A stretch of 64,000 bases of DNA from Synechococcus sp. (GCA_047285535.1 JBJBDC010000001.1:2912136-2976135); one strand, 5' to 3'. Numbered from the stretch's first letter, positions 7,745-34,233 are shown. The notes: generated by a model from the letters alone, not told the origin. Numbers and translations: made by a program.

Positions 7745-7816
7745 TGGCTGTATCCACTGATTTGGCTTGACCTCTGACCACCGGACTGAGACCCTTGGCA
7801 CTACTTCACGAATTTC

Positions 7817-8260
7817 ATGTCGGACGGCCCCACCCTGTCGATTAAGCGCACTATCACCATTCGTGCGGTGGTGACGCCAGCCTGGAAGGAGGAAGCGGAA
7901 CGTGAGTTGAGCAATGGCATAGCGACCACTGATCAGCAGCTTGCGCAGCTGGAGCAAGAGGGTCAGCAGGTGGTCGATGATGTACGTCGTCAAAGCGCTA
8001 ATCCTCTTGATCCCAGGGTCCAAGAGCAGGTGGCTCAGGTGCAGCAACAAGTTGCTGCAAAACGCGCTGAGCTGGAGGAACAAAAGCGAAACCTGCTGCA
8101 ACAACAGGCTCAAGTGCGCGAATTAGAGATGGAGCAGATTGTTGAACAGGGACAACTCGATAGTTTCTGTGACATTGAAGTTGGAGACAACTTGGTGAAG
8201 AAAATGCAGGTTGCCGTTGTTGTGCGAGACGGTGTGATCGAGTCGATCGATCAGGGCTAA
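7817..8260 (+). CDS. YlqD family coiled-coil protein
   Basis: IKRTITIRAVVTPAWKEE followed by a Gln-rich coiled coil; typical cyanobacterial neighbour of aas. Confidence 0.8.
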   Translation: MSDGPTLSIKRTITIRAVVTPAWKEEAERELSNGIATTDQQLAQLEQEGQQVVDDVRRQSANPLDPRVQEQVAQVQQQVAAKRAELEEQKRNLLQQQAQVRELEMEQIVEQGQLDSFCDIEVGDNLVKKMQVAVVVRDGVIESIDQG

Positions 8261-8304
8261 CCCGCGCCGTAAAATCTCTCCGGTTAGCTCTTCTGGAGAC
8301 GGTT

Positions 8305-9642
8305 TTGTCAACCCACGACATTTTTATGCCTGCCCTTAGCTCCACCATGACGGAGGGCAAGATCGTGGAATGGCTCAAACAGCCCGGTGAGAAGGTGGCG
8401 CGCGGTGAATCCGTTCTCGTTGTTGAGTCGGATAAAGCTGATATGGATGTGGAGTCGTTTCAGGACGGCTATCTGGCGGCTGTCTTGATGCCTGCAGGGA
8501 GTACGGCTCCTGTCGGTGAAACCATTGGTTTGATCGTAGAGACGGAAGCTGAGATCGCTGAAGTGAAGGCCAAAGCCCCCTCCGCTCCAGCTGCTGCTGC
8601 AGCCCCCACTGTTTCTGCGGTGGAACCAGGTCCGGCAGCATCGGCTGATCCCGCCCCTGTTGCTGTCGCTCCTGCATCTGCACCAGCTCCAGTTGTTGCG
8701 CCCGCTCCAGTTGCCAGTCCAGTGAGTAACGGACGCTTGATCGTCAGTCCTCGCGCTCGCAAGCTTGCCTCCCAAATGGGTGTGGATTTAGCTGGTTTGC
8801 GAGGTAGTGGACCGAATGGCCGCATTCAGGCCGAGGATGTGGAAAAGGCTGCTGGACGAGCAATTACCCCGCCTCGTGTAGGTGAAGGCACATCTGCTGC
8901 TGTCGTTGTTAGTGCAGCTGCAGTTGATGCACCGACGAAAGCCCCAGCAGGCAACAGTTTTGGTGCTCCTGGTGACACCGTTGCGTTCAACACTCTTCAA
9001 ACCGCAGTCAATCGCAACATGGAAGCCAGCCTTGCTGTGCCCTGCTTCCGGGTTGGATACACCATCACCACAGACAAGTTCGATGCTTTTTACAAGCAGG
9101 TAAAGAATAAAGGCGTCACCATGACAGCCCTTCTTGCCAAAGCTGTGGCCGTGACCTTGGCCCGTCATCCTCAAGTGAATGCGGCCACGTCTGCCTCTGG
9201 GATGAGTTACCCCGCTGAGCTCAATGTGGCTGTCGCTGTTGCCATGGAAGACGGAGGATTGATTACGCCTGTGTTGCGAAATGCCGATCGCACTGATCTC
9301 TATGAGCTCTCACGTCAGTGGGGGGATCTGGTGAAGCGCTCGCGCAGCAAACAGTTGCAGCCCGAGGAATACAGCACCGGAACCTTCACCCTCTCCAATC
9401 TCGGTATGTTCGGTGTGGATCGCTTCGATGCCATCCTTCCTCCCGGCACCGGCGCCATCCTTGCGGTGGCGGCTTCAAGACCTGCCGTTGTGGCTGGAAA
9501 GGATGGCTCCATCGCTGTGAAGCGGCAGATGCAGGTCAATCTCACGGCGGACCACCGCGTGATCTACGGCGCCGATGGGGCCGCGTTCCTCCAGGATCTT
9601 GCGGAATTGATTGAAACCCGTCCTGAAAGTCTGGCGATCTGA
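8305..9642 (+). CDS. pdhC: Pyruvate dehydrogenase E2, dihydrolipoamide acetyltransferase
   Basis: Lipoyl domain ESDKA; Ala/Pro linker; E3-binding GSGPNGRI; catalytic DHRVIYG. Confidence 0.96.
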   Translation: MSTHDIFMPALSSTMTEGKIVEWLKQPGEKVARGESVLVVESDKADMDVESFQDGYLAAVLMPAGSTAPVGETIGLIVETEAEIAEVKAKAPSAPAAAAAPTVSAVEPGPAASADPAPVAVAPASAPAPVVAPAPVASPVSNGRLIVSPRARKLASQMGVDLAGLRGSGPNGRIQAEDVEKAAGRAITPPRVGEGTSAAVVVSAAAVDAPTKAPAGNSFGAPGDTVAFNTLQTAVNRNMEASLAVPCFRVGYTITTDKFDAFYKQVKNKGVTMTALLAKAVAVTLARHPQVNAATSASGMSYPAELNVAVAVAMEDGGLITPVLRNADRTDLYELSRQWGDLVKRSRSKQLQPEEYSTGTFTLSNLGMFGVDRFDAILPPGTGAILAVAASRPAVVAGKDGSIAVKRQMQVNLTADHRVIYGADGAAFLQDLAELIETRPESLAI

Positions 9643-21494: not shown

Positions 21495-21523
21495 TGGGGT
21501 CTGTTTTGAGATAGTTTAAGGCA

Positions 21524-21925
21524 TTATTGGCATTTGCAATGGTCTTCGATGCATTGCTTTAAAGCAGTTTTGCTAACAGGCTTCACAAGGACCTCTGCCA
21601 TTCCCGCCTGTAGGCATGTCTCTAATTCATCATCAGCACCGGTGATGCCTACGATTGCTAATTCTCCAAATCTGGCATGGTTTTTGATCATTTGAGTAGC
21701 CTCTAAGCCATTCATTCCGCGCATCATCACATCCATGAAGATGATCTCCCACTCACCCGTTATTGCTGTTTCAACAGCATCCTCACCATTATTGACCACA
21801 GTGACCTGACAATTGAGCTCTTCCAGTAACTCTGCCGTCAACTCTGCAATAATGGCATCATCTTCAACAAGCAGTACGCGATAGCGTTGGTCATTTTGAT
21901 TATTCCATGGAAATTGATTTTCCAT
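21524..21925 (-). CDS. Single-domain (CheY-like) response regulator
   Basis: LLVEDD, IFMDVMM, ITG, KPV; no output domain. Confidence 0.88.
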   Translation of the reverse strand: MENQFPWNNQNDQRYRVLLVEDDAIIAELTAELLEELNCQVTVVNNGEDAVETAITGEWEIIFMDVMMRGMNGLEATQMIKNHARFGELAIVGITGADDELETCLQAGMAEVLVKPVSKTALKQCIEDHCKCQ

Positions 21926-22334
21926 TGATCAACACTTGAAAATGGGTGCTTTAATCAATATTAAAGCATAAATAGTTACGGCAAGTCAATATGAGAGTAT
22001 TTGGTTTACATGTTTCTTGAGCCGGTTTGCTTTCATGTGAATTGAGCTTGATTTTCAGTGTTTTGCCTTAAACCTGTAGGGATGCTGTCTCGACTGATTT
22101 GTTAACCATTTCATGACCGTACAACACGTGCTAGTTAAGGCGATTCTTTCTTTTCATGGCTTCTTGCTGGCAACATGACAATGACTTGATCGCAATTGTA
22201 TTGAGATTGTTGAGACACAATGTTCGGGCATGGTTCTTCGATTTAAGGCGAGAGCCTTGATGGCTTAGGGTGGCTGATGTGCTTGGAATATTTTTGATGT
22301 TTCGGATCTTGCCTTGACAAGAGCAAAGTAATCT

Positions 22335-22810
22335 TGATTTTGTGCTCCAGTTACTGGTGTGAGTAATGATTCCTCTGTAATAATTATTGTCGCTCCTTGT
22401 AGTCTCTGTTGGGTTCTGAACAGAAAGATGATCTTTGGCTCTCTTGAGATTTCATTGAAGAGAGGTGATGGTGGGTTGTGATTGAGTGATGATATTTTTG
22501 AAAAGCAATCCCAAGGGGATGCTGCTTTGTCTGTGACATTCTAGCCAATCTTGGTTGGCTAGAATGTCAAGAGGTTTTGTTGAAACTGGATTGAAGTTAG
22601 AGGTCTGTTTGTGTGCGCTCAAGGATTGTTCGCCAGAGTACTCTGAAAGGTTGGCATGTGATGGGCCTACGAAAATTGTTCAAGTAAGCTGTCACTTATC
22701 TGCCAGTTGCTCTTGATGACTCGTGGGCTAAGAGAGAACCTAATCAATACGGCGTGAGAATCAAGACTGTTTGACTGATTCTCTGGATAGAGTTGGTTTT
22801 GGCGATAGAA
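22335..22810 (+). pseudogene. Decayed duplicate of the two small genes at about 17056-17511
   Basis: 20-nt identity GAGATTTCATTGAAGAGAGG (17150 vs 22446); MGLRKSFKQ (17362) vs MGLRKLFK* (22661, CAA>TAA); GAACCTAGTCAATACGG vs GAACCTAATCAATACGG; offset about 5.3 kb throughout. Confidence 0.85.
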
Positions 22811-22931
22811 CGATTGATTGAACCATGAATAGGCTGTTGAATTGATTGCGAAGTATGGTTTGAGATGAAGATTGATTCCCTTGAAGCTCTAGGGCAAAAG
22901 CACTAGAGTTAACTTTTAATCGGAAGCCATT

Positions 22932-23195
22932 TTGAGTAAAGCTAGCATCCGTCGTTTTATCTTTACCCTGATTACAGGCTACTTGGCTATTTTTGGTGTT
23001 CAGCAGGTTCCTTATGAGTTTCCGAATCAATGGGTCGTACTCATTCCTGTTTTAATCGTCGTCTATATCATAACGGTGTGGCTGGATGGTGTATTTTTTA
23101 AAGATGAGGAGCCTCCACAAAAGATTGCTCCTGATCTGAAAAAGAAAAAGGATCGCAGGCTTGGAAGGAAATCCACAGGATTTGGTGATTCATGA
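22932..23195 (+). CDS. Small 2-TM hypothetical membrane protein
   Basis: Two hydrophobic segments and a basic tail ending GFG. Confidence 0.65.
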   Translation: MSKASIRRFIFTLITGYLAIFGVQQVPYEFPNQWVVLIPVLIVVYIITVWLDGVFFKDEEPPQKIAPDLKKKKDRRLGRKSTGFGDS

Positions 23196-23483
23196 CTTGA
23201 GGACTTGTTTGCATGCATTGAGGATTGAACTTTAATGTCATTGATCTCGATATTCGTTGAATCATGTATCGCTGAAAAATGATTGCTTGAGGTGTGTGAA
23301 AGTTGAATTCGTTTGGTAATACTTTTTTAAGCTTTTGCCATGGTATTTCTTTCTCTTGGGGAGGGTATTGTTGATGTTTAGCCAGTGTTGGTATTAAAAA
23401 ACCTTGCTTCTCTGGAAAAAAGAGAAACAAGGTTTTGATGCTGAGCCAAAGAGAAAGTTTTGCGATCCCTTGAAAAGTTGGAT

Positions 23484-24092
23484 CTACACTTTCCTTGAGT
23501 AGTACTCCACCACCAGCAGTTCGTTGATCTCCAGGGCGACCCATTCGCGTTCAGCGCGGCCAATGACCTTGGCGCTGAGTTTGGGTTTGTCGAGTTCAAG
23601 ATGAGGCGGCACGTTGGCCAAGCCTGGAAATTGGAGGTTGGCTTCAGCAAGGAGCTTGCTGCACTTGCGTTCGCGGATTGCGATCACATCACCTGCTTTG
23701 CACTGATAACTGGCAATGTCGGTCACTCGTCCATTGACTGTGACGTGTCCATGGTTCACCAATTGCCGTGCACCGGGCACGGTTGGTCCAAAGCCAAGAC
23801 GGAAACATACATTGTCGAGGCGATTCTCGAGCAGTTTGAGCAGGTTTGTTCCTGTTGAGCCTTCCTGAGCACGCGCTTTCTTCACGTAGCGCACGAGTTG
23901 TCGTTCAGAAACGCCGTAGTTGAAGCGAAGCTTTTGCTTTTCTTCTAAGCGAATTGCGTATTCGGAGCGCTTGCGACGGGCTTGGCCGTGCTGACCAGGT
24001 GGATAGGACCGTTTAGCGGCCTTCCGGGTGAGACCGGGTAGGTCTCCCAAGCGCCGCGTGATCCTCAGGCGAGGGCCGCGGTATCTGGACAT
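23484..24092 (-). CDS. rpsD: 30S ribosomal protein S4
   Basis: [10 protein letters not shown]...LENRLDN...ARQLVNHGH...LVVEYYSR. Confidence 0.99.
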
Positions 24093-24173
24093 AGGAAAAT
24101 CAATGTAGAAAATGGGTTCGCGCTAGACCGAGAATCCGTCATGCTGGGTAAGTGGCCCGCACTGCGGAATCGC

Positions 24174-24440
24174 ATGCACGAATTGAACATCTTATCGGGC
24201 GGCAGTCCGAACCCCATTAATCGTGCAATCAGCGCGATGTTGCTGGCATTGATCAGGTTGTATCGCCATTGGATTTCTCCTCTGCTTGGCCCCCGTTGTC
24301 GGTTTATTCCTAGTTGTAGTGCCTATGGCATTGAGGCGATTGAACGTCATGGTCCTTGGCGGGGAGGTTGGTTGACGTTCCGTCGGCTTTTGCGTTGTCA
24401 TCCTTTTACTCCCTGTGGTTGTGACCCTGTCCCGGATTGA
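24174..24440 (+). CDS. yidD: Membrane protein insertion efficiency factor
   Basis: [10 protein letters not shown]...RCHPF...DPVP. Confidence 0.93.
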
Positions 24441-24729
24441 TTCTCGTCGCTTAATTCTTTACAGCCGTTCTGGTTGTTGTCTTTGCGAGGGGCTTGAGCA
24501 GCGCTTGCGGGCTCTCAACCTTGATCAAGGTCAACATCCCTTGCAGCTGGTTGTTTTTGACATCGATGCTCCAGAGTTCTCTGCGGCATTGAAAGCCCGA
24601 TATGACGTCGAGGTGCCTGTCTTGGCTCTAGAAGAAACAGAGCTGCCTCGTGTGTCTCCCAGGCTGAGTGGTGATGGACTCTTGCATTGGTTGCAGAGGG
24701 TTTGCGCGATTGCGTCAGGTTCGGATTAG
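24415..24729 (+). CDS. Glutaredoxin-like protein (DUF836 type)
   Basis: [13 protein letters not shown]xxC motif; YDVEVPVL. Confidence 0.8.
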
Positions 24730-24754
24730 AACACCCATCTGTGGTGACCTAGCG

Positions 24755-26293
24755 ATGACCCAGACACTCCACGCCTTGCTTCATTCGGTGGGTTTTCCTG
24801 TGCCCCAGAGCGTGGCCGATGTAGTGATCGAATCAATCACCTGTGATTCTCGGTGTGTGCGCCCTGGGAGTCTTTTTATCGGTCTTCCCGGCGGGCGTGT
24901 CGATGGAGGAAGCTTCTGGCCCCAGGCTCTTGCTGATGGGGCTGCAGCAGTCCTGATTGGCTCAGACGCAGCTGCCGCGAGGCCTCCTCGACAGAGCGAC
25001 GCTGTGCTGGTTGTGTCTGATCCAGTTGCTCGCTGGGCCGGTGAGTTAGCAGCCGCTTTCTGGAATCACCCCAGTGATCGCATCGGTTTGATTGGAGTCA
25101 CGGGCACCAACGGCAAAACCACGACTACCCATCTTATTGAACATTTGAGCTCGGCCTGCGGGCGTCCTTCCGCCCTGTTTGGAACGCTTCTGAATCGCTG
25201 GCCTGGCCACAGCGTCACGGCGACCCACACCACAGCGGTGGCTGATCGGCTGCAGGCTCAGCTTGCTGAAGCCTCTGCCGCTGGCGCGCAGTTAACGGCG
25301 ATGGAGGTCAGCTCCCACGCCCTTGATCAACATCGGGTCGCTGGATGCCGTTTTTCCGGCGCTGTGTTTACCAACCTCACCCAGGACCATCTCGATTACC
25401 ACGAGACGATGGCGGCTTATTTCGAAGCCAAAGCTCGTCTGTTTGCGCCACCGCTTTCGCCGCCACTGAATGCTGATCATGGCGCTCAATTTGTGGTCAA
25501 TGTGGACGATCCTTGGGGCAAACAACTAGCGGAGCGGTTGGGAGATCGCTGTTGGCGGAGTTCGCTGTCAGAGGGCTCAATTCACGCAGAATTGACAATT
25601 TCAGAGTTGGTGATGGGCCCCTCCGGGGTCGAAGGTCGTTTGTCCAGTCCTCGGGGTGAGGGCTCCTTCCATTCCCCGCTGTTGGGCCGCTTCAATCTGA
25701 TGAACCTTTTGCAGGCCGTCGGGGTCTTGCTTCAGCAAGGTCTTCCTTTGGAGTCGCTTCTGAAAGCAATCAGCACATTCCCAGGTGTTCCCGGTCGAAT
25801 GGAACGGGTTGTTTTGGCCTCAACTCTTGAAGCGCTGCCCACGGTCTTGGTGGATTACGCGCACACTCCTGATGGTTTAAGCAGCGCATTGAGGGCGTGT
25901 CGCCCCTTCGTGGACGGCAAACTGATCTGTGTGTTTGGGTGTGGTGGTGATAGGGACCGTGGCAAGCGTCCGCAGATGGCTGAGATTGCGGCAGAGCTTG
26001 CTGATTGTGTGGTGGTGACCTCTGATAATCCACGCACAGAAGATCCTCAACAAATCCTGGATGATGTTGTCAATGGAATTCCCAGCGGTACTGATTTGGC
26101 TGTGAGGCTGGATCGTGCTGAAGCTATTGCTGGAGCCATTCAGGATGCAGGGCCTAAGGATCTTGTTCTGATTGCCGGGAAAGGTCATGAGGATTATCAA
26201 ATTCTGGGTACCCAAAAAGTTCATTTTGATGACCGTGAACACGCTCTGGAGGCCTTGCAGCAAAAGTATTCAAGTAATGAATCGGCTGATTGA
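24755..26293 (+). CDS. murE: UDP-MurNAc-tripeptide synthetase (meso-DAP ligase)
   Basis: [41 protein letters not shown]. Confidence 0.97.
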
Positions 26294-26309
26294 TTGCTTG
26301 AGTTGTGGT

Positions 26310-27461
26310 TTAGCTAGGGTAATAGAAAAATGCTGCTCCAAAGATTGAAAACATTCCTAGAAGTAAGACTCCCTCTAGCCAATTCGATTGAGCATCCATA
26401 TTTACCAGATTTACGATTAATACACTAAATAATAATGCTATGACTTCAAATGCTGTGAAGTCGAGATTCATTGGTTGGCCGATAAGTGAGCCAATGATGA
26501 TCAGAGCCGGCGCAATCAGTAAAGCAACGAGTAAGCTGGATCCCATGGCTAGTGAAATGGGAAGGTCCATTTGGTTTTTCCATGCTCCTTTGACTGCTGG
26601 CACATATTCTGAAAAACCACCAATAATTGGAATGATAATAATTCCAGTGAATAAAGGACTGAATCCCAATTGTTCGGTGGCAGGCTCAAGAAAATGAACA
26701 AAGCTCTCTGATTGATAAGCTAAGAACGCAGTGCTAGCAATCAATTGGATAATCCAGGCCATTAAATTTGTGCTGCCTTTCACGTCTGATTGTGCAGACG
26801 AAGTTGTTGCGTCGTCCTTCAGGTGATGAGGATCAAACAGATGGCTATGGGTTGCGAGCGAAAAGATGAGGGTCATGAAATAGATGACCATGAGAATCAC
26901 GGCCACTGTTATTGATAAACCGTGAATTGCGACTGGGTCATCAATGCCTGATGTGCTGATGAGAGAGGCAGGGAGTGCCATGGCCATCACGGCTAAAGTC
27001 ATTGCGGCACCATTTGTTCGAACCATGGTGGCTTGAAAGCTTTGTTCGCTATATCTCAGGCCTCCAATCAGCATCGCAATGCCTGTTACAAGCAGAAGGT
27101 CAGAGAGAATCGCGCCAGTAATGCTTGCCTTGACAACATCAATAAGCCCCATTCTGAGGGCAGATAAGGCAATAATAAATTCAGCACAGTTTCCAAAGAC
27201 TGCTGTGCAAATTGCTCCTATGGTAGGTCCACTATGTTCTGAAATCTCTTCTGTAGCATCACTCAGCAAGAGAGCAATTGGAATAATTCCTGCTGCTGAA
27301 AGGATGAAACAAATAATGGTAGGCCAACCTAGGCTTCTCGCTAATTGCGTCAAGACAAGCATGGTTAGCGCTGGTAATAATTTCCATCGACCAGATTCGA
27401 TAAATGAGTTGAGTGGACTCATCTCGTTCTTGTTTTCTGAACTGATTTTATTTGTTAGCAT
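26310..27461 (-). CDS. chaA: Ca2+(cation)/H+ antiporter, CAX/ChaA family
   Basis: alpha-1 repeat GNCAE; alpha-2 repeat GGFSEY (atypical); SLATH; MGSSL; SNWLEG; about 11 TM. Confidence 0.88.
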   Translation of the reverse strand: MLTNKISSENKNEMSPLNSFIESGRWKLLPALTMLVLTQLARSLGWPTIICFILSAAGIIPIALLLSDATEEISEHSGPTIGAICTAVFGNCAEFIIALSALRMGLIDVVKASITGAILSDLLLVTGIAMLIGGLRYSEQSFQATMVRTNGAAMTLAVMAMALPASLISTSGIDDPVAIHGLSITVAVILMVIYFMTLIFSLATHSHLFDPHHLKDDATTSSAQSDVKGSTNLMAWIIQLIASTAFLAYQSESFVHFLEPATEQLGFSPLFTGIIIIPIIGGFSEYVPAVKGAWKNQMDLPISLAMGSSLLVALLIAPALIIIGSLIGQPMNLDFTAFEVIALLFSVLIVNLVNMDAQSNWLEGVLLLGMFSIFGAAFFYYPS

Positions 27462-27515
27462 CTATTTTGTGTTGTTTTGACTGTTGAATCGACAGGTTTT
27501 GATGCTGGGATTTGA

Positions 27516-28676
27516 TCATGGCTCCCATTGTTGCGAGCCAAAAAAGGTGAGTTCAACATAGTCACTTGCTTGTTTCTTGTTTGTCAAGAAATCAAGCTTA
27601 AATCCGCCTAGATCAACTTTTTTGAGCGACCTGAGAGCCGTGATTAACTTCTCTCTGGTGAGTTGGCCTTTCACTCTTTTTAAGCCCTCTGTTAATAATT
27701 TAGCGGCTATGAATCCTTCTAGACTGGTGTATCCGAATTTTGCAGAGGGATTGTTGTCACGCATCAGCCGTTGATAGTCTGCGACAATTGGAATCCATCG
27801 ATCCCAGGGGAATGGAACAACTTGACTGACCCCGATCCCATTCGCTTGCCCGACAGGCAGAGAATTTTCGAGTGCTCTAGTGCCCACAAAAGAAACGTTC
27901 ATAATCTGAGCTTTGATGTTATGTCGCAACAATGCCTTGCTTAATGCTGCTGAGCTTACATAAGTTGAAATGATAATAACGGCATTGGGTTGAGCCTCTT
28001 TAAGGATTTTAAGTGCAGGTTTAATTTGTGCAGAATTTCTTTGAACAGTTGCAACCGCAACAGGTTTGAGGCCATGTTGTTTGATGGCTAATTCTGCCGA
28101 CCGTAGCCCGTCTTTGCCAAAGGCATCATCTTGATAGATAATTGCGATTTTTTGCCGTGCGTTGCGAACAAGGCTGTCAACAATTTTGTCTATTTCCATC
28201 TTGTAGCTGGCTCGTAGATTGACCACCATCTTCAGGTTGTTGTTTCGAAGCAGAGTCGCGCCCGTCAGAGGAGCTATGAGTGGCACCTTCTTTGCTTCAA
28301 TTAATGGGAGTATTTCCTTGGTTGTTGGTGTGCCTACATATCCAAATAATGCCAAAAGATTAGGCTTTGCAAGTAAAGACTTTGTATTGACAATAGTCAT
28401 CTCTGGCTCGTATTGATCATCGAGGCTGATTAGTTTGATTTTTTTTCCATTGATTCCTCCGGTTCGATTGACTTCATTAAACCAGGCATTAGCGCCAGTC
28501 TTGTATTTTTGGCCAATTTGAGCTGATGGGCCACTGAGCGGAAGTGATTGGCCAAGAAGGATCATATTTTGGCCTTCAGAGGATGTTTGTCGTGTGCTCT
28601 GTTGAGCCGAGGCTGACATAATCGATACAGAAATTCCAATAGCGATGAAGGCATTTCTTATCACTCCCTTCTCCAT
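27516..28676 (-). CDS. Type I (LIV-BP-like) periplasmic binding protein, orphan
   Basis: Signal peptide ...SIMSASA; LGQSLPLSGP, GGINGKKI, DDQYEP, GYVGTPT, YQDDAFG, SLEGF. Confidence 0.88.
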   Translation of the reverse strand: MEKGVIRNAFIAIGISVSIMSASAQQSTRQTSSEGQNMILLGQSLPLSGPSAQIGQKYKTGANAWFNEVNRTGGINGKKIKLISLDDQYEPEMTIVNTKSLLAKPNLLALFGYVGTPTTKEILPLIEAKKVPLIAPLTGATLLRNNNLKMVVNLRASYKMEIDKIVDSLVRNARQKIAIIYQDDAFGKDGLRSAELAIKQHGLKPVAVATVQRNSAQIKPALKILKEAQPNAVIIISTYVSSAALSKALLRHNIKAQIMNVSFVGTRALENSLPVGQANGIGVSQVVPFPWDRWIPIVADYQRLMRDNNPSAKFGYTSLEGFIAAKLLTEGLKRVKGQLTREKLITALRSLKKVDLGGFKLDFLTNKKQASDYVELTFFGSQQWEP

Positions 28677-28722
28677 ATGCTTATACAATGAAGGATTCGT
28701 TTGAATTGGTACTTTTGGTTCC

Positions 28723-29961
28723 ATGACGAAGATTCGACGACGGAGAAAGTGGAACATCTTGGCAGTCGCTTCAGTCTTGCTGGCAGCTTTACTTCTTATT
28801 GTTGGAATATCCAGTTTAGATGTAGATCAAGTGCCGGGACGTGATTCCTTGCGCCTTTCTTCAGCTTCTCGTGCTTTAACCACCTCGTTAGAGCGCTTGC
28901 CTCGTGATGGCTGGAGTTCTCAACGAGGGGAGTCTTTAAGTGGGAGTGAAATACAAACTGATCTTGAGGCATTAGATAAGGCTAAATACCACGTGAAGAT
29001 TGGGGTGTATTCAAATAGCATGTATGATCTTGATCTAAGTGTGCCCAGCTTTTCGTCTAGTGGGTATGTGTGGTTGCGATGGGAAAAGCCTCTACAAGAT
29101 TACTTAGAGGCAAATGATAATTCCTTGGAAGAGCATATTCTTCTATTGAATGCTCTTTTGTCTGATGCGGAGCCTGTCTTGAATCCTGTTCAGGATAAGC
29201 CAGCAGTCTTGTCTGATGGCACCTATTATCAACTGTATACCTATGTCGGTAGATTTTTTATTGATCTGACAAGCTTTAGACACTTTCCGTTCCTAAAAAT
29301 TGGGTTGCCAATTGCAATCGAAGCGGATGATGTTGCCGGTGGTCTTGGTTACTCAGAGCTGCGTTTTGAACCCGATATTCGTAATAGTGGTATGGGCCTT
29401 TACGCGGGAAAAGGTATCATCGGATGGCTGAATCGTGGTTGGTCAATTGCTGAGTATCGACATAATTATGCTACCAATTTTGGCTTAGGGGGTTTGGAGC
29501 GAGATTATAGTTTAGTTGTTTACGATATTACATTTGGTACTTCGGCTTGGTCGGCTTTCTGGCGCTTGATGTTGCCTCTCCTTGTTGTCATGGTGATGGT
29601 ACTTCTTGTCTTTAAGATACGTCCAGATGAACAGGATGCTAGGGCTGGTATTCCTGTTACTGTTTTGTTGACGTTGGTGTTTTTGCAGCAAGTGTATAGA
29701 GGGGAGTTGCCTGATCTTCCCTATTTAACTTTTTTGGATTCTGTTTATGTGATTGCTTATGTCATCACACTGTTTGCATTTGTGTTGTTAGTGTGGATTG
29801 GTCGTCGTTATGCAGATATGGAAAATATGCCCCTTGGAGAAATGCGTGACAAGCTGTCTCATCGGCTTGAAACTCTTGATCAAGTATGGCCCCTGATGAT
29901 GGTATTGTTTTGCACAATTGCCGTGCTTCTTGCTTGGTATTTGATTCCTGCAGCGGCTTAA
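28723..29961 (+). CDS. Pentameric ligand-gated ion channel (Pro-loop; GLIC/ELIC-like)
   Basis: beta-sandwich VKIGVY...GYVWLRW; Pro-loop FRHFPF; M1 WRLMLP; M2 ARAGIPVTVLLTL; M2-M3 LPDLPYLTFLD; M4. Confidence 0.88.
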   Translation: MTKIRRRRKWNILAVASVLLAALLLIVGISSLDVDQVPGRDSLRLSSASRALTTSLERLPRDGWSSQRGESLSGSEIQTDLEALDKAKYHVKIGVYSNSMYDLDLSVPSFSSSGYVWLRWEKPLQDYLEANDNSLEEHILLLNALLSDAEPVLNPVQDKPAVLSDGTYYQLYTYVGRFFIDLTSFRHFPFLKIGLPIAIEADDVAGGLGYSELRFEPDIRNSGMGLYAGKGIIGWLNRGWSIAEYRHNYATNFGLGGLERDYSLVVYDITFGTSAWSAFWRLMLPLLVVMVMVLLVFKIRPDEQDARAGIPVTVLLTLVFLQQVYRGELPDLPYLTFLDSVYVIAYVITLFAFVLLVWIGRRYADMENMPLGEMRDKLSHRLETLDQVWPLMMVLFCTIAVLLAWYLIPAAA

Positions 29962-29970
29962 ATTATCTCT

Positions 29971-31161
29971 TTATGCTAATTCTTTAAGGGCATTCATTAG
30001 CGCTGAAATTTCTTGTTCTTGCGTGGTGATATGGGTGCAGGCTCTTAAGCAAATTGGCTCCTCGAGGTTGCGGATCCAGATCCCCTTATTGCCAAGCATT
30101 TGTACGATTTCAGAAGTGCTTTTGTTTGACTTGGCGTCGAGTTTGAAACTTACGAGTCCCGCAGGTGGTTCTCCTTCGAGTAATGGAGTGGTACCTCGAT
30201 GCCTATTGAGTTGTTCCCACAGCTGACTACTTAAGTTTTGAATTTTTTTTAGTCTCATCTCAACATTTCCCTCTTCCTCTAATAAATTCAATGATTGTCG
30301 TAATCCTGCCATGAGAGGTACGCAGCTCGTCGCGATTTCAAAGCGCCGGCTGTCGTGGTGGAAGGGGTCTGGATCATTCATAATCGCGCGGGTTTCATCG
30401 CGAAGGCTGCGCCAGCCGATCATGGTTGGATTGGCTTCGTTAAGCATGCGTTCTGATAGGGCCACACCTCCAAGTCCTTCGGGGCCGCAGGCCCATTTGT
30501 GTCCAGTGAAGGCATAGATGTCTGCAGCCTGTGCTGCTTCTTTCACAGGGATCTGCCCCATGGTTTGGGCTGCATCCACGAGCAGATAGGGATGCTGAGG
30601 ATGGGCACGAAGATGGTCCGCAACAGCGGCGATGGGCATGAGTTGTCCTGTATTCCAGAGCAGATGGGAGAGCACCACCAATGTCGTGCGTGGCTGGAGT
30701 GATTCCTCCAGAGCCTTGATCACGCTTGCGTCAGTATCGCTTTGTGCTTCACGGCCTCGTCTCAACCCTTGCACAGGAAGTTTGTCGATGGCTAGCTCTT
30801 CACGCCTGGCGAGTTCATGGCAAGCGGCCACCACCCCTGGGTGTTCGCAATCACTGATCAAGATGCGATCACCAGCTTTGAAGGGAAGCCCCCACAGAGG
30901 TAGGACACATCCACTGGTCACGTTTTCGCTCAGGGCAAGGCGATGAGGTGCGACACCGCATAAGCGAGCTAATAACCCTCGCGTTCGATTGGTTTCCCTA
31001 CTGATGAAAGGCCACACATCGGTGGTGAAAGGCCCGAGCTCCTGGATGCGATGCCAACTTGTGGCCATAGCTTCTAAAGAAGGCGTAGGAAGTGGTCCCT
31101 GACCTCCGAAGTTGAAGTAGGTCTTATTCGTGAGTGCTGGACAGAAATCTTTGAACGACAC
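29971..31161 (-). CDS. Class V PLP enzyme, L-cysteine/cystine lyase (C-DES-like)
   Basis: YFNFGGQGP, SDCEHP, LSHLLWNTG, DAAQ, TGHKWACGPEG. Confidence 0.88.
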   Translation of the reverse strand: MSFKDFCPALTNKTYFNFGGQGPLPTPSLEAMATSWHRIQELGPFTTDVWPFISRETNRTRGLLARLCGVAPHRLALSENVTSGCVLPLWGLPFKAGDRILISDCEHPGVVAACHELARREELAIDKLPVQGLRRGREAQSDTDASVIKALEESLQPRTTLVVLSHLLWNTGQLMPIAAVADHLRAHPQHPYLLVDAAQTMGQIPVKEAAQAADIYAFTGHKWACGPEGLGGVALSERMLNEANPTMIGWRSLRDETRAIMNDPDPFHHDSRRFEIATSCVPLMAGLRQSLNLLEEEGNVEMRLKKIQNLSSQLWEQLNRHRGTTPLLEGEPPAGLVSFKLDAKSNKSTSEIVQMLGNKGIWIRNLEEPICLRACTHITTQEQEISALMNALKELA

Positions 31162-31454
31162 AAGAAAAAATGTTAGGGAGGTGTTGGTGCTTTATTGCTT
31201 TATTCAATCTGACAAGACATGCATTGAGCGGTTTGAGTAAGGCTTTGAATCTAACTATTATAAGACTTTCTTAGGACGTTATTAATCATCTTTTTAAGGG
31301 TGTAGGGTTTATAGACATACAGCTATCACCCCTGCTCTTTGGATTGGGTCTTTAGGAGTCAAAGCAGTGCTTTCGATGTCTTTGATGATGAATAACTTCA
31401 TCGAGTGCATCTACCTCGCTTGAAGCCATGGCTACCTTTTGAGTCGATGCTTGG

Positions 31455-32159
31455 TTGGCAATGGCTGCAGTTGATTGGTGGTGGATCCTGCATCCTTTTC
31501 TTGCTGTGGTGTTGGTGTATCCACTGATTGGTGTGGTGGTTCGTTTGGCCATTCAGACGCGTGCACGTCGCCTTCAAAAGGAGAAGCTTCCTGCAACGGT
31601 GGGTCGTGACCACAGCGATTTGGGTCGTTGGCTGGCTGCTGCGGTGGTTGTGCTTGTGTTGATCGCTCTTTCTGTCGTGATCGTCACGAAAGCTCCTCTG
31701 GCTCAGTTTGAAGGGGGTGTGGCTCGAGCTCTGCAGCTATTCCTTGTGTTGTGCGGGACGATTGCAAGTCTTTTTGCGCTTTGGCGTTGCAAATTGCCAG
31801 GATTGAGGCTGGCGTTCGCTTTAATTACCTGGGCTGGAGTCTTGGGGCTTGGAGCTCAGCCAGAGGTTTGGCGGCTTTCGGATAATCCATTGACACCGGC
31901 GTTTTGGCAGTCCCATTACTGGGCAGGTGTGGGCGTTACCGGATTAATGTTGTTTTCTCTTGGAGCTCGTCCTGAGATCTTGCGTGACATTCGCATGCGT
32001 CGCTTGCATGTGACGGCGAATGTGCTTGCGGCGGTATTGTTTTTAACACAAGGTCTAACGGGCACACGCGATCTTCTTGAAATTCCACTGAGTTGGCAGA
32101 AGTCCACGATCTATCAATGTGACTTCAATGCCAGGACATGTCCCTCTTTCCCAGATTAG
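31455..32159 (+). CDS. Cyanobacterial membrane protein (DUF4079-like)
   Basis: LHP, SHYW, RRLH, TGTRDLLEIPLSWQ; conserved His residues in TM helices. Confidence 0.75.
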   Translation: MAMAAVDWWWILHPFLAVVLVYPLIGVVVRLAIQTRARRLQKEKLPATVGRDHSDLGRWLAAAVVVLVLIALSVVIVTKAPLAQFEGGVARALQLFLVLCGTIASLFALWRCKLPGLRLAFALITWAGVLGLGAQPEVWRLSDNPLTPAFWQSHYWAGVGVTGLMLFSLGARPEILRDIRMRRLHVTANVLAAVLFLTQGLTGTRDLLEIPLSWQKSTIYQCDFNARTCPSFPD

Positions 32160-32439
32160 TGCTGGGCAGCAACTTATTTCAATTTGAATGGTATTTTGAT
32201 TAAGTAAAATTGTCTTTTAATTTTATCAATTAGCTGGTGATTGGAGAAGCGTATTGGGGCGATTCGCGGAATTGTTTATTAAATGGAAGGTTGGTGTCTG
32301 CTTGGTAATAGTGTTCGCCTATGCATTGAAGAATTAATTGGACTTCGCAAAGAAAGGAAAACTAATTTGCTGGTTTACTTCTTGGGAGAGCTAATTAAAA
32401 TGTAATGTGAAGCCTTGAATGTGTTTTGGCTTCATCTTT

Positions 32440-32685
32440 TCAGAGGACTTGGACAACTTCGCTCACTTCTGGGATGCATTCCCTCAGTTTGCGTTCGATG
32501 CCCATTTTCAAGGTCATCGTGCTGCTTGGGCAGCTTCCACAAGCTCCCTGTAAGCGTACTTTCACGATTGGACCGTCAATCTCTACAACTTCAACGTTTC
32601 CTCCATCGGCCATCAAAAACGGGCGAAGTTCATCGAGCACCTTTTCCACGTTCTCGTTTGTGAGGGCCATGGTCTCAGTGCTCAT
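32440..32685 (-). CDS. nfuA: NifU C-terminal-domain Fe-S scaffold (Nfu)
   Basis: [12 protein letters not shown]...[11 protein letters not shown]...GIE. Confidence 0.93.
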
Positions 32686-32769
32686 CGATCAAATATCAAC
32701 TACCAACCACCTTAGACAATTATGTAAATGCTCGGCCACTTAGCCTGTTCTGAGAGATCAATTTGCGCC

Positions 32770-34233
32770 TTGGATCGCTACGACGCTGTGCTCGTGGGTG
32801 CTGGGATCATGAGTTCCACCTTGGCCACCCTGTTGCATGAGCTTGATCCAGACTTGCGTTTGTTGTGTATTGAACGTTTAGAAGCACCAGCGCTGGAAAG
32901 CACCGCTGCCGTGAATAACGCTGGCACTGGTCACGCCGCTAACTGTGAGCTTAATTACACCCCTATTCAGGCTGATGGCACTGTCTCAACAGAGAAGCCG
33001 ATCGCCATCAATGCAAGTTTTGAGCGAAGCCTTGAGTTTTGGGCTTCGCTTCGTGAACGGGGGCGTTTAGACCCCCGTTTGTTCTTGCACCGTGTGCCTC
33101 ATATCAGTTTTGTGTGGGGTGAAGCTGATGTTGCTTATCTGCACCAGCGCTATGAGCAGTTCAAGGCTCTTCCTGCTTTCGCGGCCATGCAATGGAGCAG
33201 TGACTACGCCGAGCTGTCCGCCTGGATCCCGCTGGTGATGGCAGGGCGTGATCCCCAGTTGCCAGTGGCGGCGACCAAGGTTGAGCGAGGCACTGACATT
33301 GATTTTGGTGCTCTGTCACGTGCCCTTTTGGCTCCTCTTCAGGGATCAGGAGCCCTCGATGTGCTCTTCGGAACTTCGGTGTCAGACCTGAATCGATGTG
33401 CCGAGGGTTGGGAGGTGAGACTGCGTTGTCCTTCAAGTCGCCGAGTGGTATCAACACCTTTTGTTTTCCTCGGCGCTGGTGGTGGTGCGCTTCCCCTGCT
33501 GCAACGCTCCGGCATTCCAGAGGCTGGGAATTACGCCGGTTTTCCCGTCAGCGGGCAATGGCTGGTCTGCAGTGATCCAGTGTTGTCGCAACATCATTTT
33601 GCCAAGGTTTATGGCAGAGCAAAGGTGGGAGCTCCTCCCATGTCGGTGCCCCATCTCGACACGCGTTGGATTGATGGTCGTCGTTCTTTGCTGTTTGGAC
33701 CCTATGCAGGATTCAGCAGCAAGTTTTTGAAGCAAGGATCAATCTTGGATCTGCCTCGATCGGTGCGCTCTACCAATGTGTTGCCGATGCTGCAAGTGGG
33801 TGTGAATAACATTCCTTTGGTGCGGTATCTCATTAATCAACTGCGCCAGAGCGATTCGGATCGGATTGAGGCTTTAAAAGCTTTTCTGCCAGCAGCTCGC
33901 GATCAGGATTGGACGTTGTCTGTAGCTGGTCAGCGGGTTCAGATCATTAAACGGACGTCAAAAGGTGGCCGTTTGCAGCTTGGTACCGAAGTGGTGGCAG
34001 CAGCTGATGGTTCTTTGGCGGCACTGCTTGGAGCCTCTCCTGGCGCAAGCACTTCAGTCACGATCATGCTGGAAGTGTTGCAACGCTGCTTCTCTGCACG
34101 TTTGGCCACAGAGGCATGGCAGCAGAGATTGCAAGCTTTATTGCCGAGTTATGGTCAAGACCTCAGCCTTGACGCGGAGCTTCTTCATCGCAGTCGTGAA
34201 CGCAGTGATGCTCTTTTGGAACTTGGGGTTTAA
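32770..34233 (+). CDS. mqo: Malate:quinone oxidoreductase
   Basis: [49 protein letters not shown]. Confidence 0.96.

What the first reader, a model, noticed from the sequence alone, without database searches (positions are those of the whole stretch)
26310..29961. Candidate ionotropic chemosensing module: pentameric ligand-gated channel, orphan binding protein and Ca2+/H+ antiporter
Seen: three AT-richer genes lie between murE and the cystine lyase. A Pro-loop pLGIC (28723) and a LIV-BP-type binding protein (likely start 28676) are head-to-head with only about 46 bp between them. The binding protein is followed about 54 bp later by a CAX antiporter, and there is no ABC permease or ATPase in the module. 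Known: prokaryotic pLGICs (GLIC, ELIC) are homologues of GABA-A, glycine and nicotinic receptors, and their native ligands and partners are largely unknown. The LIV-BP fold is the ligand-binding fold of mGluR/GABA-B receptors. Inference: the periplasmic protein captures a small molecule and gates or modulates the channel in trans, and the antiporter resets the ion signal, giving a minimal receptor-channel-reset circuit.
Basis: partly seen in the sequence, partly recalled or inferred. Interest (0 to 1): 0.85.

Follow-up and report, generated by a model that had tools for sequence, protein, structure and literature searches.

The report
Channel with its own binding protein
A bacterial relative of nerve-cell receptor channels sits beside a periplasmic binding protein that has no transporter of its own, and the two genes travel together across small cyanobacteria, so they probably form one two-part chemical sensor; the calcium antiporter next door is probably only a neighbour.

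Summary
A CAX antiporter (26310-27461, -), a type-I periplasmic binding protein (PBP, 27516-28676, -) and a divergent ELIC/GLIC-like pentameric channel (pLGIC, 28723-29961, +) form a low-GC islet between murE and a class-V aminotransferase.

The PBP-channel pair is a real, conserved module.
- The PBP lies head-to-head with the channel in 71 of 77 picocyanobacterial loci. Four of the six misses are contig ends.
- The pair sits in several genomic contexts and duplicates as a unit.
- It was deleted as a unit in two genomes.
- Two further channel lineages each carry their own adjacent type-I PBP in other gene orientations.
- The genome's only Liv-type permeases are UrtB/UrtC, which have their own UrtA.
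- A complex model passed: score 0.69, best control 0.01. It places PBP motifs found only in channel-partnered PBPs against a conserved N-terminal arm of the channel. That arm is altered in channels that lost the PBP.

CAX is adjacent only in one marine clade: 4 of 71 loci that hold the PBP, against 42 loci with room and no CAX. It stays intact in one genome after the pair was lost.

Best reading: a two-component ionotropic receptor. CAX coupling is unproven. That PBPs cooperate with bacterial pLGICs was proposed in 2005, so this is a new variant of a known kind.

The parts
28723..29961 (+). Pentameric ligand-gated ion channel homologue (P0003, 412 aa), Pro-loop type
   Evidence: ELIC 8d67_A E 4.9e-6 over extracellular and membrane domains. 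Model pLDDT 89.3, pTM 0.83. Foldseek GLIC 4ila_E E 1.9e-19, TM 0.61/0.79; also ELIC, sTeLIC and GlyR.
28726..28815 (+). N-terminal hydrophobic helix of the channel (aa 2-31): a signal anchor or an extra membrane helix
   Evidence: Predicted helix 2-31, pLDDT 70-84. Preceded by RRRRK. Whether it is cleaved is not known.
28828..28980 (+). Conserved N-terminal arm of the channel (aa 36-86; RDxLRLSS...GW..LRG..L...E...D), absent from ELIC and GLIC; predicted docking site for the binding protein
   Evidence: R40, L43, R44, L45, G69, L72, E76 and D80 are invariant in 38 partnered channels of groups A and B. Interface residues are 40, 44, 47, 49-55, 58-61, 66, 70, 74, 77-78, 81 and 85. The arm is altered in 4 channels that lack a PBP.
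29632..29700 (+). M2 pore helix (aa 304-326): D305-A306-R307(0'), T313(6'), L316(9'), F320(13')
   Evidence: Register taken from the HMMER alignment to ELIC. L316, F320 and R307 are invariant. The reading of an acidic -2' position as cation selectivity is recalled knowledge and was not tested.
28677..28722 (.). 46-bp divergent intergenic region between the PBP and channel start codons
   Evidence: The same 46 bp spacing is seen in L056. The promoter scan of the region is at chance level (7 found, 7.2 expected).
27516..28676 (-). Orphan type-I periplasmic binding protein (386 aa from M28 of P0002), with a Sec signal peptide and no lipobox
   Evidence: Peripla_BP_6 E 1.6e-52. PDB 4kv7 E 1.4e-55. 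Model pLDDT 79.9. Foldseek 4kv7 TM 0.84/0.88 and 3lop 0.82/0.90. Signal peptides in relatives.
27795..27824 (-). PBP motif QVVPFPW(D/N)R (aa 285-294 of the 386-aa form); FPW..R is specific to channel-partnered PBPs
   Evidence: Present in 38 of 38 partnered PBPs and in none of the other relatives aligned. Residues 289 and 291-294 lie in the predicted interface.
27519..27548 (-). PBP C-terminal tail ...LTFFGSQQWEP-stop (aa 377-386), specific to channel-partnered PBPs
   Evidence: G380 and W384 are invariant. pLDDT is under 50 in the PBP folded alone. Residues 377-378 and 380-386 lie in the predicted interface.
26310..27461 (-). CAX-type Ca2+/H+ exchanger (P0001, 383 aa), 54 bp downstream of the PBP on the same strand; a neighbour, possibly co-transcribed, not a conserved part of the module
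   Evidence: TIGR00378 328.9 bits against 211.15. Adjacency is limited to one clade.
24668..26293 (+). murE, left flank of the low-GC islet
   Evidence: TIGR01085 513.3 bits against 257.3. GC 0.56.
29971..31161 (-). Class-V aminotransferase or desulfurase-like gene, right flank of the islet
   Evidence: Aminotran_5 E 1.2e-32. Below all NCBIfam cut-offs. GC 0.52.

Best explanation
The binding protein and the channel are two subunits of one ionotropic receptor. The secreted type-I (Venus-flytrap) binding protein captures a small periplasmic solute that is not yet identified. It docks on the outer face of the channel's extracellular domain. The contact uses the PBP's FPW..R loop and WEP C-terminal tail on one side. 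On the other it uses the channel's conserved N-terminal arm, its N-terminal helix and strands beta8-beta10. Ligand-driven closure of the flytrap then opens or modulates a pore that is probably cation-selective, turning a chemical signal into an ion flux. The pair moves between genomic sites as a cassette.

Shown by computation: the family assignments, the conserved pairing, the orphan status, the partner-specific motifs and the predicted interface.

Inferred: physical binding in the cell, gating in trans, ion selectivity, the ligand and the physiological output.

CAX is most likely a co-inherited, perhaps co-transcribed, neighbour in one marine clade.
For: 1. Adjacency. The PBP is present directly beside the channel in 71 of 77 loci, one genome per species, all from picocyanobacteria by record title apart from some evidently mislabelled MAGs. 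All 68 full-length pairs drawn from these loci are divergent. Of the 6 misses, 4 are cut by a contig end and 2 are true absences.
2. Context. The pair occurs between murE and the aminotransferase, and between a small membrane protein and an ABC1 kinase. That second site is empty in this genome.
3. Paralogous pairs. Group B channels (37-41% identical to the window's channel, 5 loci) have a Peripla_BP_6 gene tail-to-tail. Group C channels (25-31% identical, 8 loci) are followed in the same direction, overlapping by 4 bp, by a gene of 416-463 aa. In the 3 cases tested by Pfam that gene is Peripla_BP_5.
4. Unit behaviour. Tandem pairs in L108 and L125 diverged in parallel. Between a-type pairs the channel is 90% and the PBP 87% identical; between b-type pairs 89% and 86%; between a and b 65% and 59%. 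One deletion in G009 removed the 5' parts of both genes. In G029 both genes are gone.
5. Orphan status. The only BPD_transp_2 permeases in the complete genome are UrtB and UrtC, beside UrtA.
6. Sensor kinship. The PBP's longer relatives include many Ser/Thr-kinase fusions, an MCP fusion, cyclase fusions and one PBP-pLGIC fusion, P0074.
7. Complex model, with two copies of the extracellular domain and one PBP. Score 0.69 (runs 0.69, 0.72, 0.50); best of 3 controls 0.01. In the tool's calibration 116 of 157 solved complexes and 2 of 215 mismatched pairs reached the mark. The runs agree in at least 68% of contacts and the partner's pLDDT is at least 88. The tool notes that these counts hold only roughly with own alignments and a three-chain job.
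8. Interface and conservation. The interface coincides with motifs found only in partnered PBPs and with the channel's invariant N-terminal arm.
9. Channels without a PBP. Four such channels changed 9 of 20 interface cells at otherwise invariant columns, against 17 of 152 elsewhere in the extracellular domain. G015 and G011 hold no P0002-like PBP anywhere.
Against: - There is no experimental datum and no expression datum.
- The complex score is a model's confidence. It used my own alignments, which also carry the conservation signal, so points 7 and 8 above are not fully independent.
- The enrichment in channels without a PBP rests on only two independent loss events. Three of the four sequences are one clade, so the Fisher p of 6e-4 is overstated.
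- Channels of this group persist without any such PBP in two independent lineages (the L041-L043 clade, which includes G015 and G011, and L097), so the PBP is not indispensable for keeping the channel.
- No close fused PBP-channel form was found. The one fusion seen, P0074, is distant (E 4.2e-6).
- The channel keeps a highly conserved loop C and may bind a ligand by itself.
- Sharing of the Urt permeases cannot be excluded by sequence.
Confidence: 0.65

Rival explanations
1. One reading: the PBP gates the channel, Ca2+ enters, and the adjacent CAX antiporter resets the signal, so that all three genes form one functional circuit, at least in this marine clade.
For: - All three genes share a GC about 10 points below their flanks, in this window and in L056-L058.
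- CAX lies 14-74 bp downstream of the PBP on the same strand in the window and L056-L059. No terminator-like site lies on that strand in the gap.
- Within the genus, the 13 genomes with this CAX orthologue (69-100% identity) are the ones that carry the islet or its remains. Ten hold the whole trio, one is cut by a contig end, and two have the pair deleted.
- In G029, which lost the pair, CAX is frameshifted.
- The pore has an acidic -2' residue, which by recalled knowledge fits a cation channel.
Against: - CAX is next to the PBP in only 4 of 71 loci that hold the PBP. In 42 loci at least 1200 bp beyond the PBP hold no CAX, and 25 are too short to judge.
- No CAX lies beside the group B or group C pairs.
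- In 26 loci of CAX homologues from other genera, no PBP or channel lies within 1.5 kb.
- In G009 the pair is deleted and its remnants have diverged (50% and 72% identity), yet CAX is an intact 383-aa frame at 86-87% identity.
- Co-inheritance of adjacent genes is not independent evidence.
- Ca2+ permeability is untested.
Confidence: 0.2
2. The PBP is an ordinary substrate-binding protein that feeds an ABC importer encoded elsewhere, and its position beside the channel is incidental.
For: - Peripla_BP_6 is the LivJ/LivK family, and its closest solved relatives are annotated as ABC binding proteins.
- The genome has one HAAT-type system, UrtABC, that could in principle be shared.
Against: - UrtB and UrtC have their own UrtA (590 bits against a 492.75 cut-off), and P0002 scores 35.9 against that model.
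- Pairing with a channel recurs in 71 of 77 loci, in three paralogous pair types and in several contexts.
- The surface motifs specific to partnered PBPs are missing from the other relatives aligned.
- The complex model passed.
Confidence: 0.05
3. The pair is a binding-protein-dependent uptake or efflux route, not a sensor. The PBP delivers a small charged solute, for example an amine or ammonium-like cation, that passes through the pentameric pore itself.
For: - The PBP has no ABC partner.
- Binding-protein-dependent non-ABC transporters exist (TRAP, TTT; recalled).
- Group C partners are of the amide- and urea-binding Peripla_BP_5 family.
Against: - The pore has the usual hydrophobic 9' Leu and 13' Phe girdle of gated ion channels.
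- No pLGIC is known to me to carry organic substrates (recalled).
- The predicted docking is on the side of the extracellular domain, not over the vestibule.
Confidence: 0.07
4. The adjacency is only inherited synteny without functional meaning.
For: All loci come from one bacterial family. In the class-level sample this subfamily was found only there, in 7 of 39 genomes of the family and 0 of 361 genomes of other families.
Against: - At least four different flanking contexts and three gene orientations are seen.
- The pair duplicates in tandem as a unit and is deleted jointly.
- The usual site is empty in this genome.
Confidence: 0.03

Closest known systems
PBP-I::pLGIC fusion proteins of proteobacteria (Tasneem, Iyer, Jakobsson and Aravind 2005, PMC549065, passages read; an example found here is P0074, 752 aa)
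   Same: A type-I periplasmic binding domain of the Peripla_BP_6 family combined with a pentameric channel. In P0074, Peripla_BP_6 covers aa 41-398 and Neur_chan_memb covers aa 638-725 at 28.7 bits against a 28.1 cut-off. The proposed role is also the same: the PBP senses a solute for the channel.
   Different: Here the two are separate polypeptides from divergent genes, and the PBP is secreted with its own signal peptide. The fusion is only a distant relative of both proteins (PBP E 4.2e-6; channel part E 2.6e-7 in a small database). No close fused form was found. That paper described the cyanobacterial channels as having a simple architecture.
Stand-alone PBP-II or Cache genes in conserved neighbourhoods with bacterial pLGICs (same paper)
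   Same: A separate periplasmic sensor protein encoded beside a pLGIC and predicted to cooperate with it.
   Different: A different binding-protein superfamily (type II or Cache, against type I here). No interface, partner-specific motifs or paralogous pair series were described in the passages I read.
ELIC, GLIC, sTeLIC (solved prokaryotic pLGICs)
   Same: The fold of the extracellular beta-sandwich plus four membrane helices (TM 0.76-0.80 by target length). Also the Pro-loop proline, the M1 proline and the 9' leucine.
   Different: Sequence identity is 16-18%. The window's channel has an extra N-terminal hydrophobic helix and a conserved arm of about 50 residues. It has a dedicated partner protein. 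Its agonist is unknown.
DeCLIC (pLGIC with a large N-terminal domain, modulated by Ca2+; PMC12664993 and PMC9897478, abstracts and passages seen)
   Same: An accessory periplasmic module on top of the canonical extracellular domain that modulates gating.
   Different: DeCLIC's module is fused and is not a PBP fold. Here the accessory module is a separate Venus-flytrap protein.
Binding-protein-dependent sensors: Tar/MBP, LuxP/LuxQ, ChvE/VirA (recalled, not checked here), and the Ser/Thr-kinase, MCP and cyclase fusions of this PBP's own relatives
   Same: A periplasmic binding protein used as the ligand-recognition part of a membrane signalling protein.
   Different: The output module here is an ion channel, not a kinase or chemoreceptor.
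CAX family Ca2+/H+ exchangers (TIGR00378)
   Same: P0001 scores 328.9 bits against a cut-off of 211.15 and has two Na_Ca_ex repeats.
   Different: Nothing unusual was seen in the protein itself. Only its position in the islet is of note.

Membership tests
Pentameric ligand-gated ion channels (Pro-loop/Cys-loop superfamily) | Extracellular beta-sandwich domain followed by four membrane helices M1-M4 | tested here: met
   Model pLDDT 89.3, with strands in 89-273 and helices 275-298, 304-326, 337-367 and 373-407. Foldseek GLIC, ELIC, sTeLIC and GlyR, E down to 1.9e-19. ELIC sequence match over both domains.
Pentameric ligand-gated ion channels (Pro-loop/Cys-loop superfamily) | Curated family score (Pfam Neur_chan_memb / Neur_chan_LBD; NCBIfam LGIC_1) | tested here: not met
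   Neur_chan_memb 24.4 bits against 28.1; no hit to the ligand-binding-domain model; LGIC_1 32.9 against 500. This is a divergent member that sequence models alone under-call.
Pentameric ligand-gated ion channels (Pro-loop/Cys-loop superfamily) | Signature residues: Pro-loop proline, M1 proline, basic 0' and 9' leucine in M2 | tested here: met
   P189, P285, R307 and L316 are invariant in 38 sequences. The register comes from the ELIC alignment. The list of signature positions is partly recalled and partly from PMC549065.
Pentameric ligand-gated ion channels (Pro-loop/Cys-loop superfamily) | Pentameric assembly and agonist-gated ion conduction | not testable with these tools
   Only two copies of the extracellular domain were modelled. 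There is no electrophysiology.
Type-I periplasmic binding proteins (Peripla_BP_6, LivJ-like) | Family score and two-lobe Venus-flytrap fold, secreted | tested here: met
   179.7 bits against 31.7. Foldseek 4kv7 TM 0.84/0.88 and 3lop 0.82/0.90. Signal peptide with an AxA site, also in relatives.
Type-I periplasmic binding proteins (Peripla_BP_6, LivJ-like) | Cognate HAAT-type ABC permeases and ATPases | tested here: not met
   None in the locus. Genome-wide the only BPD_transp_2 genes are UrtB and UrtC, with UrtA. P0002 is far below the LivJ (45.6 against 477) and UrtA (35.9 against 492.75) equivalog cut-offs.
PBP-assisted pLGIC receptors (as proposed by Tasneem et al. 2005) | Persistent genomic linkage of a PBP with a pLGIC across lineages and contexts | tested here: met
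   71 of 77 loci; three paralogous pair types; duplication and deletion as a unit.
PBP-assisted pLGIC receptors (as proposed by Tasneem et al. 2005) | Existence of a fused form of the same two families (Rosetta-stone link) | tested here: met
   P0074 combines Peripla_BP_6 and Neur_chan_memb. The link holds only at family level, because no close fused relative was found.
PBP-assisted pLGIC receptors (as proposed by Tasneem et al. 2005) | Physical contact of the PBP with the channel and an effect on gating | tested here: inconclusive
   The complex model passed at 0.69 against 0.01 for the best control. This is a prediction only. Gating cannot be tested here.
CAX Ca2+/H+ exchangers | Equivalog score and two alpha-repeat halves | tested here: met
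   TIGR00378 328.9 against 211.15. Na_Ca_ex in two stretches.
   4 of 71 loci with the PBP, all from one clade; 42 loci with room hold no CAX. None beside groups B and C. None of 26 CAX loci of other genera has a PBP or channel within 1.5 kb.

The most novel reading that the evidence does not exclude
The binding protein is an obligatory, detachable ligand-recognition subunit of a pentameric channel. Up to five flytrap proteins would ring the extracellular domain. They would be held by a dedicated N-terminal arm of the channel and by the PBP's FPW and WEP motifs, and the solute would gate the pore without touching the classical agonist site. Picocyanobacteria would then carry up to three such receptor types with different binding proteins (Peripla_BP_6 and Peripla_BP_5). 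That would make a modular ionotropic chemosensory system in some of the ocean's most abundant phototrophs. In this marine clade the cassette would travel with a Ca2+/H+ exchanger as a ready-made Ca2+ signalling islet.
Probability: 0.3. Interest if true: 0.88.

Novelty: new variant of a known kind. Interest (0 to 1): 0.7.

Why it matters
Native ligands and partners of prokaryotic pLGICs are largely unknown, and the solved models (GLIC, ELIC, sTeLIC, DeCLIC) are studied without physiological context.

A conserved, separately encoded Venus-flytrap partner with a concrete predicted interface gives a directly testable system. It would show how an accessory binding module can control a Cys-loop-type channel. 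In animals that arrangement is known only for other channel families, such as the PBP-like domains of glutamate receptors.

It also suggests that non-flagellated picocyanobacteria sense dissolved solutes through ion fluxes. Ligand screening on a soluble protein would be a practical route to the signal.

My searches of the held library found the 2005 prediction. They found no paper describing a stand-alone type-I PBP paired with a pLGIC in cyanobacteria, and none testing such a complex. Subscription journals are not covered.

Tried and rejected
- Fused forms. Among proteins of 722-2060 aa, no relative of the channel scored. The best 150 of 1119 representative hits are all 484 aa or shorter. So there is no close Rosetta-stone fusion.
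- Wider distribution. Alignments A1 and A6 had no stretch conserved enough for a collection scan. A metagenome scan with P0077 confirmed no relative of it. The taxa of the 34-42% identical metagenomic relatives (P0077 to P0085) therefore stay unknown.
- Expression. No RNA holder was listed for the stretch, so nothing can be said on expression or co-transcription.
- Promoter and terminator scan. It was at or near chance: 7 promoter-like sites against 7.2 expected, and 7 terminator-like sites against 4.3. I used it only to note that no terminator-like site lies on the minus strand between the PBP and CAX.
- Rfam. No match at E 0.1 or better in 24000-33000, so there is no riboswitch hint to the ligand.
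- Ligand identity. The closest solved structures (4kv7, 3lop, 4m88) carry no ligand in their titles, and a literature search on their codes gave nothing relevant. More distant relatives bind amino acids, aromatic acids, fatty acids, urea or pyroglutamate. The ligand class stays open.
- The small membrane protein (144-190 aa, no Pfam family) directly downstream of the PBP in 13 loci was considered as a third component. I rejected it because this genome keeps the gene (69% identity) at a distant site beside the ABC1 kinase, without the pair.
- The long ORF start at 28757 for the PBP was rejected in favour of 28676.

Full report
**What is in the window.**
- Between murE (24668-26293, +) and a class-V aminotransferase (29971-31161, -) lie three genes.
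  - A CAX exchanger at 26310-27461 (-). It scores 328.9 bits on TIGR00378 against a cut-off of 211.15.
  - A Peripla_BP_6 binding protein at 27516-28676 (-). Pfam E is 1.6e-52.
  - A divergent pentameric channel at 28723-29961 (+).
- The channel falls below Pfam's cut-off (24.4 bits against 28.1). It nevertheless aligns to ELIC over both domains (E 4.9e-6).
- Folded with 42 relatives, it gives a confident model (pLDDT 89.3, pTM 0.83). The best structural matches are GLIC, ELIC, sTeLIC and glycine receptors (E 1.9e-19, TM 0.79 by target length).
- It has the Pro-loop proline (P189), the M1 proline (P285), a basic 0' residue (R307) and the 9' leucine (L316). All are invariant in 38 relatives.
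- The PBP start at 28676 gives a Sec signal peptide, as in relatives. One relative has a stop in the longer upstream frame.
- The start codons are then 46 bp apart, and CAX follows the PBP after 54 bp.
- The three genes have GC 0.43-0.44, against 0.56 and 0.52 for the flanks.

**The pair is conserved; the trio is not.**
- A scan of one genome per species returned 77 loci. By record title all come from Synechococcus, Cyanobium or Vulcanococcus-type picocyanobacteria, apart from several MAG titles that are evidently mislabelled.
- A PBP gene lies directly beside the channel in 71 of the 77. All 68 full-length pairs drawn from these loci are head-to-head.
  - Four of the six misses are cut by a contig end (L069, L077, L095, L099).
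  - Two are true absences (L097, L115).
- CAX is next to the PBP in 4 loci (L056-L059). In 42 loci at least 1200 bp beyond the PBP hold no CAX. In 25 the sequence is too short to judge.
- Outside the marine clade, the pair usually sits between a small membrane protein and an ABC1 kinase. In this genome those two genes are adjacent with nothing between them, so that site is empty.
- The pair therefore behaves as a cassette that occupies different sites.

**Paralogous pairs.**
- Group B channels are 37-41% identical to the window's channel. In 5 loci they have a Peripla_BP_6 gene (38-42% identical to P0002) lying tail-to-tail, 15-33 bp away.
- Group C channels are 25-31% identical and about 380 aa long. 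In 8 loci they are followed, in the same direction and overlapping by 4 bp, by a gene of 416-463 aa. In the three cases I tested by Pfam that gene is Peripla_BP_5, at E 1e-123 to 1e-125.
- Group C pairs lie between DUF4079 and Mqo, 2-3 kb from the islet's position. This window has DUF4079 and Mqo but not that pair.
- Other channel lineages (L046, L050, L055) have no PBP neighbour.
- Three channel lineages, each with its own type-I PBP in three different gene orientations, are hard to explain by inherited synteny.

**The pair behaves as a unit.**
- Two genomes carry two group A pairs in tandem (L108, L125). Like-with-like comparisons give 90% and 89% identity for the channels and 87% and 86% for the PBPs. 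Between the two kinds the figures are 65% and 59%. So the pair was duplicated whole, and each PBP has stayed with its channel.
- Over all 38 pairs the two identity matrices correlate at r = 0.92. This is not independent of species relatedness.
- In G009 one deletion removed the 5' parts of both genes, leaving 34 and 29 C-terminal codons.
- In G029 both genes are gone entirely.

**The PBP has no transporter of its own.**
- The complete 3.03-Mb genome has only two BPD_transp_2 permease genes. They are UrtB and UrtC and sit beside a bona fide UrtA (590 bits against 492.75).
- P0002 is far below the LivJ and UrtA equivalog cut-offs.
- Its longer relatives are mostly sensor architectures. They include tandem PBPs, many Ser/Thr-kinase fusions, an MCP fusion, cyclase fusions, a eukaryotic class-3 GPCR and one Peripla_BP_6::pLGIC fusion, P0074.

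**Predicted contact.**
- I folded two copies of the channel's extracellular part (residues 36-282) with the mature PBP, each with a 38-row alignment.
- The complex scored 0.69 (runs 0.69, 0.72, 0.50), and the best of 3 controls scored 0.01.
- In the tool's calibration the mark was reached by 116 of 157 solved complexes and 2 of 215 mismatched pairs.
- The runs agree in at least 68% of contacts, and the partner's pLDDT is at least 88.
- The tool warns that its counts hold only roughly for own alignments and for a job of this shape.
- No PDB entry appears in both of my sequence searches (top 60 of 143 hits for the channel, 29 for the PBP). I therefore have no sign that the pass comes from memory of a solved complex.
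- On the PBP the interface is residues 289 and 291-294 and the last ten residues.
  - These are the FPW(D/N)R extension of the family-wide QVVP motif and the C-terminal ...GSQxW(E/G)P-stop.
  - Both are present in 38 of 38 channel-partnered PBPs of groups A and B.
  - Both are absent from the kinase-fused, tandem and other relatives I aligned.
  - Folded alone, these two segments have pLDDT under 50.
- On the channel the interface is a conserved N-terminal arm (residues 40-85) that ELIC and GLIC lack, plus residues 92, 119, 216-220, 238-241 and 270.
- In the arm, R40, L43, R44, L45, G69, L72, E76 and D80 are invariant across groups A and B.

**A natural experiment.**
- Four group A channels have no PBP beside them (L041-L043, which form one clade, and L097). 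G015 and G011 have no P0002-like gene anywhere in the genome.
- At columns invariant in partnered channels, these four changed 9 of 20 interface cells (R40, R44, G239). Elsewhere in the extracellular domain they changed 17 of 152 (Fisher p 6e-4).
- Further changes fall in the arm at L45, G69, L72, E76 and D80.
- This rests on only two independent losses, so the p-value overstates the case. The direction is what a docking arm freed of its partner would show.
- The same data show that the channel can persist without the PBP.

**Mechanism.**
- I read the pair as a two-component ionotropic receptor. The soluble flytrap protein recognises a solute, sits on the side of the extracellular domain, and couples its closure to gating.
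- The pore has D305-A306-R307 at -2' to 0'. By recalled comparison with GLIC this suggests cation selectivity. I did not test that.
- I cannot tell whether the PBP hands the ligand to the channel's own site, as Tasneem et al. proposed, or acts purely allosterically. Loop C of the channel is highly conserved, so either remains possible.
- The ligand is unknown.

**CAX.**
- For a link, within this clade only:
  - the three genes share the GC dip in four genomes;
  - the gaps between the PBP and CAX are 14-74 bp on the same strand;
  - the 13 genus genomes with this CAX orthologue are exactly those with the islet or its remains;
  - in G029, where the pair is gone, CAX is frameshifted.
- Against a link:
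  - the counts given above;
  - no CAX lies beside the group B or group C pairs;
  - 26 CAX loci in other genera have no PBP or channel within 1.5 kb;
  - in G009 CAX remains an intact 383-aa frame at 86-87% identity, while the pair's remnants have drifted to 50% and 72%.
- I put about 0.2 on a functional CAX coupling.

**Relation to what is known.**
- Tasneem, Iyer, Jakobsson and Aravind (2005; PMC549065, passages read) reported three things:
  - PBP-I domains fused to pLGICs in alpha-proteobacteria;
  - stand-alone PBP-II or Cache genes in conserved neighbourhoods;
  - one operon with a Na+/H+ transporter.
- They proposed that these modules sense or concentrate ligands for the channel. They described the cyanobacterial channels as having a simple architecture.
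- Later structural work on DeCLIC concerns a fused, non-PBP N-terminal domain (abstracts and passages).
- My other searches found no description of a stand-alone type-I PBP partnered with a pLGIC, and no test of such a complex. The library lacks most subscription journals.
- The finding is therefore a new variant of a predicted kind. Unusually, it comes with concrete and testable detail.

Noticed in passing
Relatives: L045, L047-L049, L051-L054 (for example L051:5989-8381); window 31455-34233 for comparison: A third channel lineage (about 380 aa, 25-31% identical) is followed, in the same direction and overlapping by 4 bp, by a Peripla_BP_5 (AmiC/UrtA-like) binding protein. The pair lies between DUF4079 and Mqo. 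This window has DUF4079 (31455-32159) and Mqo (32728-34233) but not that pair, and the 570-bp gap between them has low GC.
   Followed up: partly
Own genome outside the window, L164 (G000:C1:285430-288882): The small membrane protein and the ABC1 kinase that flank the PBP-channel pair in many Cyanobium-type genomes are adjacent here, 72 bp apart, with no pair between them. This is an empty site, which suggests the pair is gained and lost as a cassette.
   Followed up: yes
L135 (G009) and L175 (G029): Two independent losses of the pair at the murE locus. G009 keeps C-terminal remnants of both genes and an intact CAX. G029 has only about 260 bp between CAX and the aminotransferase, and its CAX is frameshifted with about 26 codons missing.
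   Followed up: yes
L075, L083, L086, L088, L095, L098 (record titles): Contigs carrying this cyanobacterial gene pair sit in MAG records titled Bifidobacterium breve, Bradyrhizobium ivorense, Salipiger bermudensis, Bordetella parapertussis and Chitinophaga pinensis. These are probably mislabelled or contaminated bins.
   Followed up: no
L046 (G040:C1, about 5803-8429 of the locus): In another genus a pLGIC homologue (30% identity) with one in-frame TAA lies convergent with, and just after, an MscS-type mechanosensitive channel that carries a cyclic-nucleotide-binding domain.
   Followed up: no
L025 (G039:C57): Two weak pLGIC matches lie in tandem on the same strand (about 1522-2286 and 2475-3389), which may be duplicated channel genes in a distant cyanobacterium.
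   Followed up: no
P0016-P0039: A large set of proteins of about 780 aa carries a C-terminal PBP domain 36-40% identical to P0002, behind roughly 420 N-terminal residues. In P0016 these show only weak fn3 and purple-acid-phosphatase-N matches. The architecture has no described function that I know of.
   Followed up: partly
window 20000-23500: A second low-GC stretch (0.39-0.43) lies just upstream of the murE region and may be another islet. I did not examine it.
   Followed up: no
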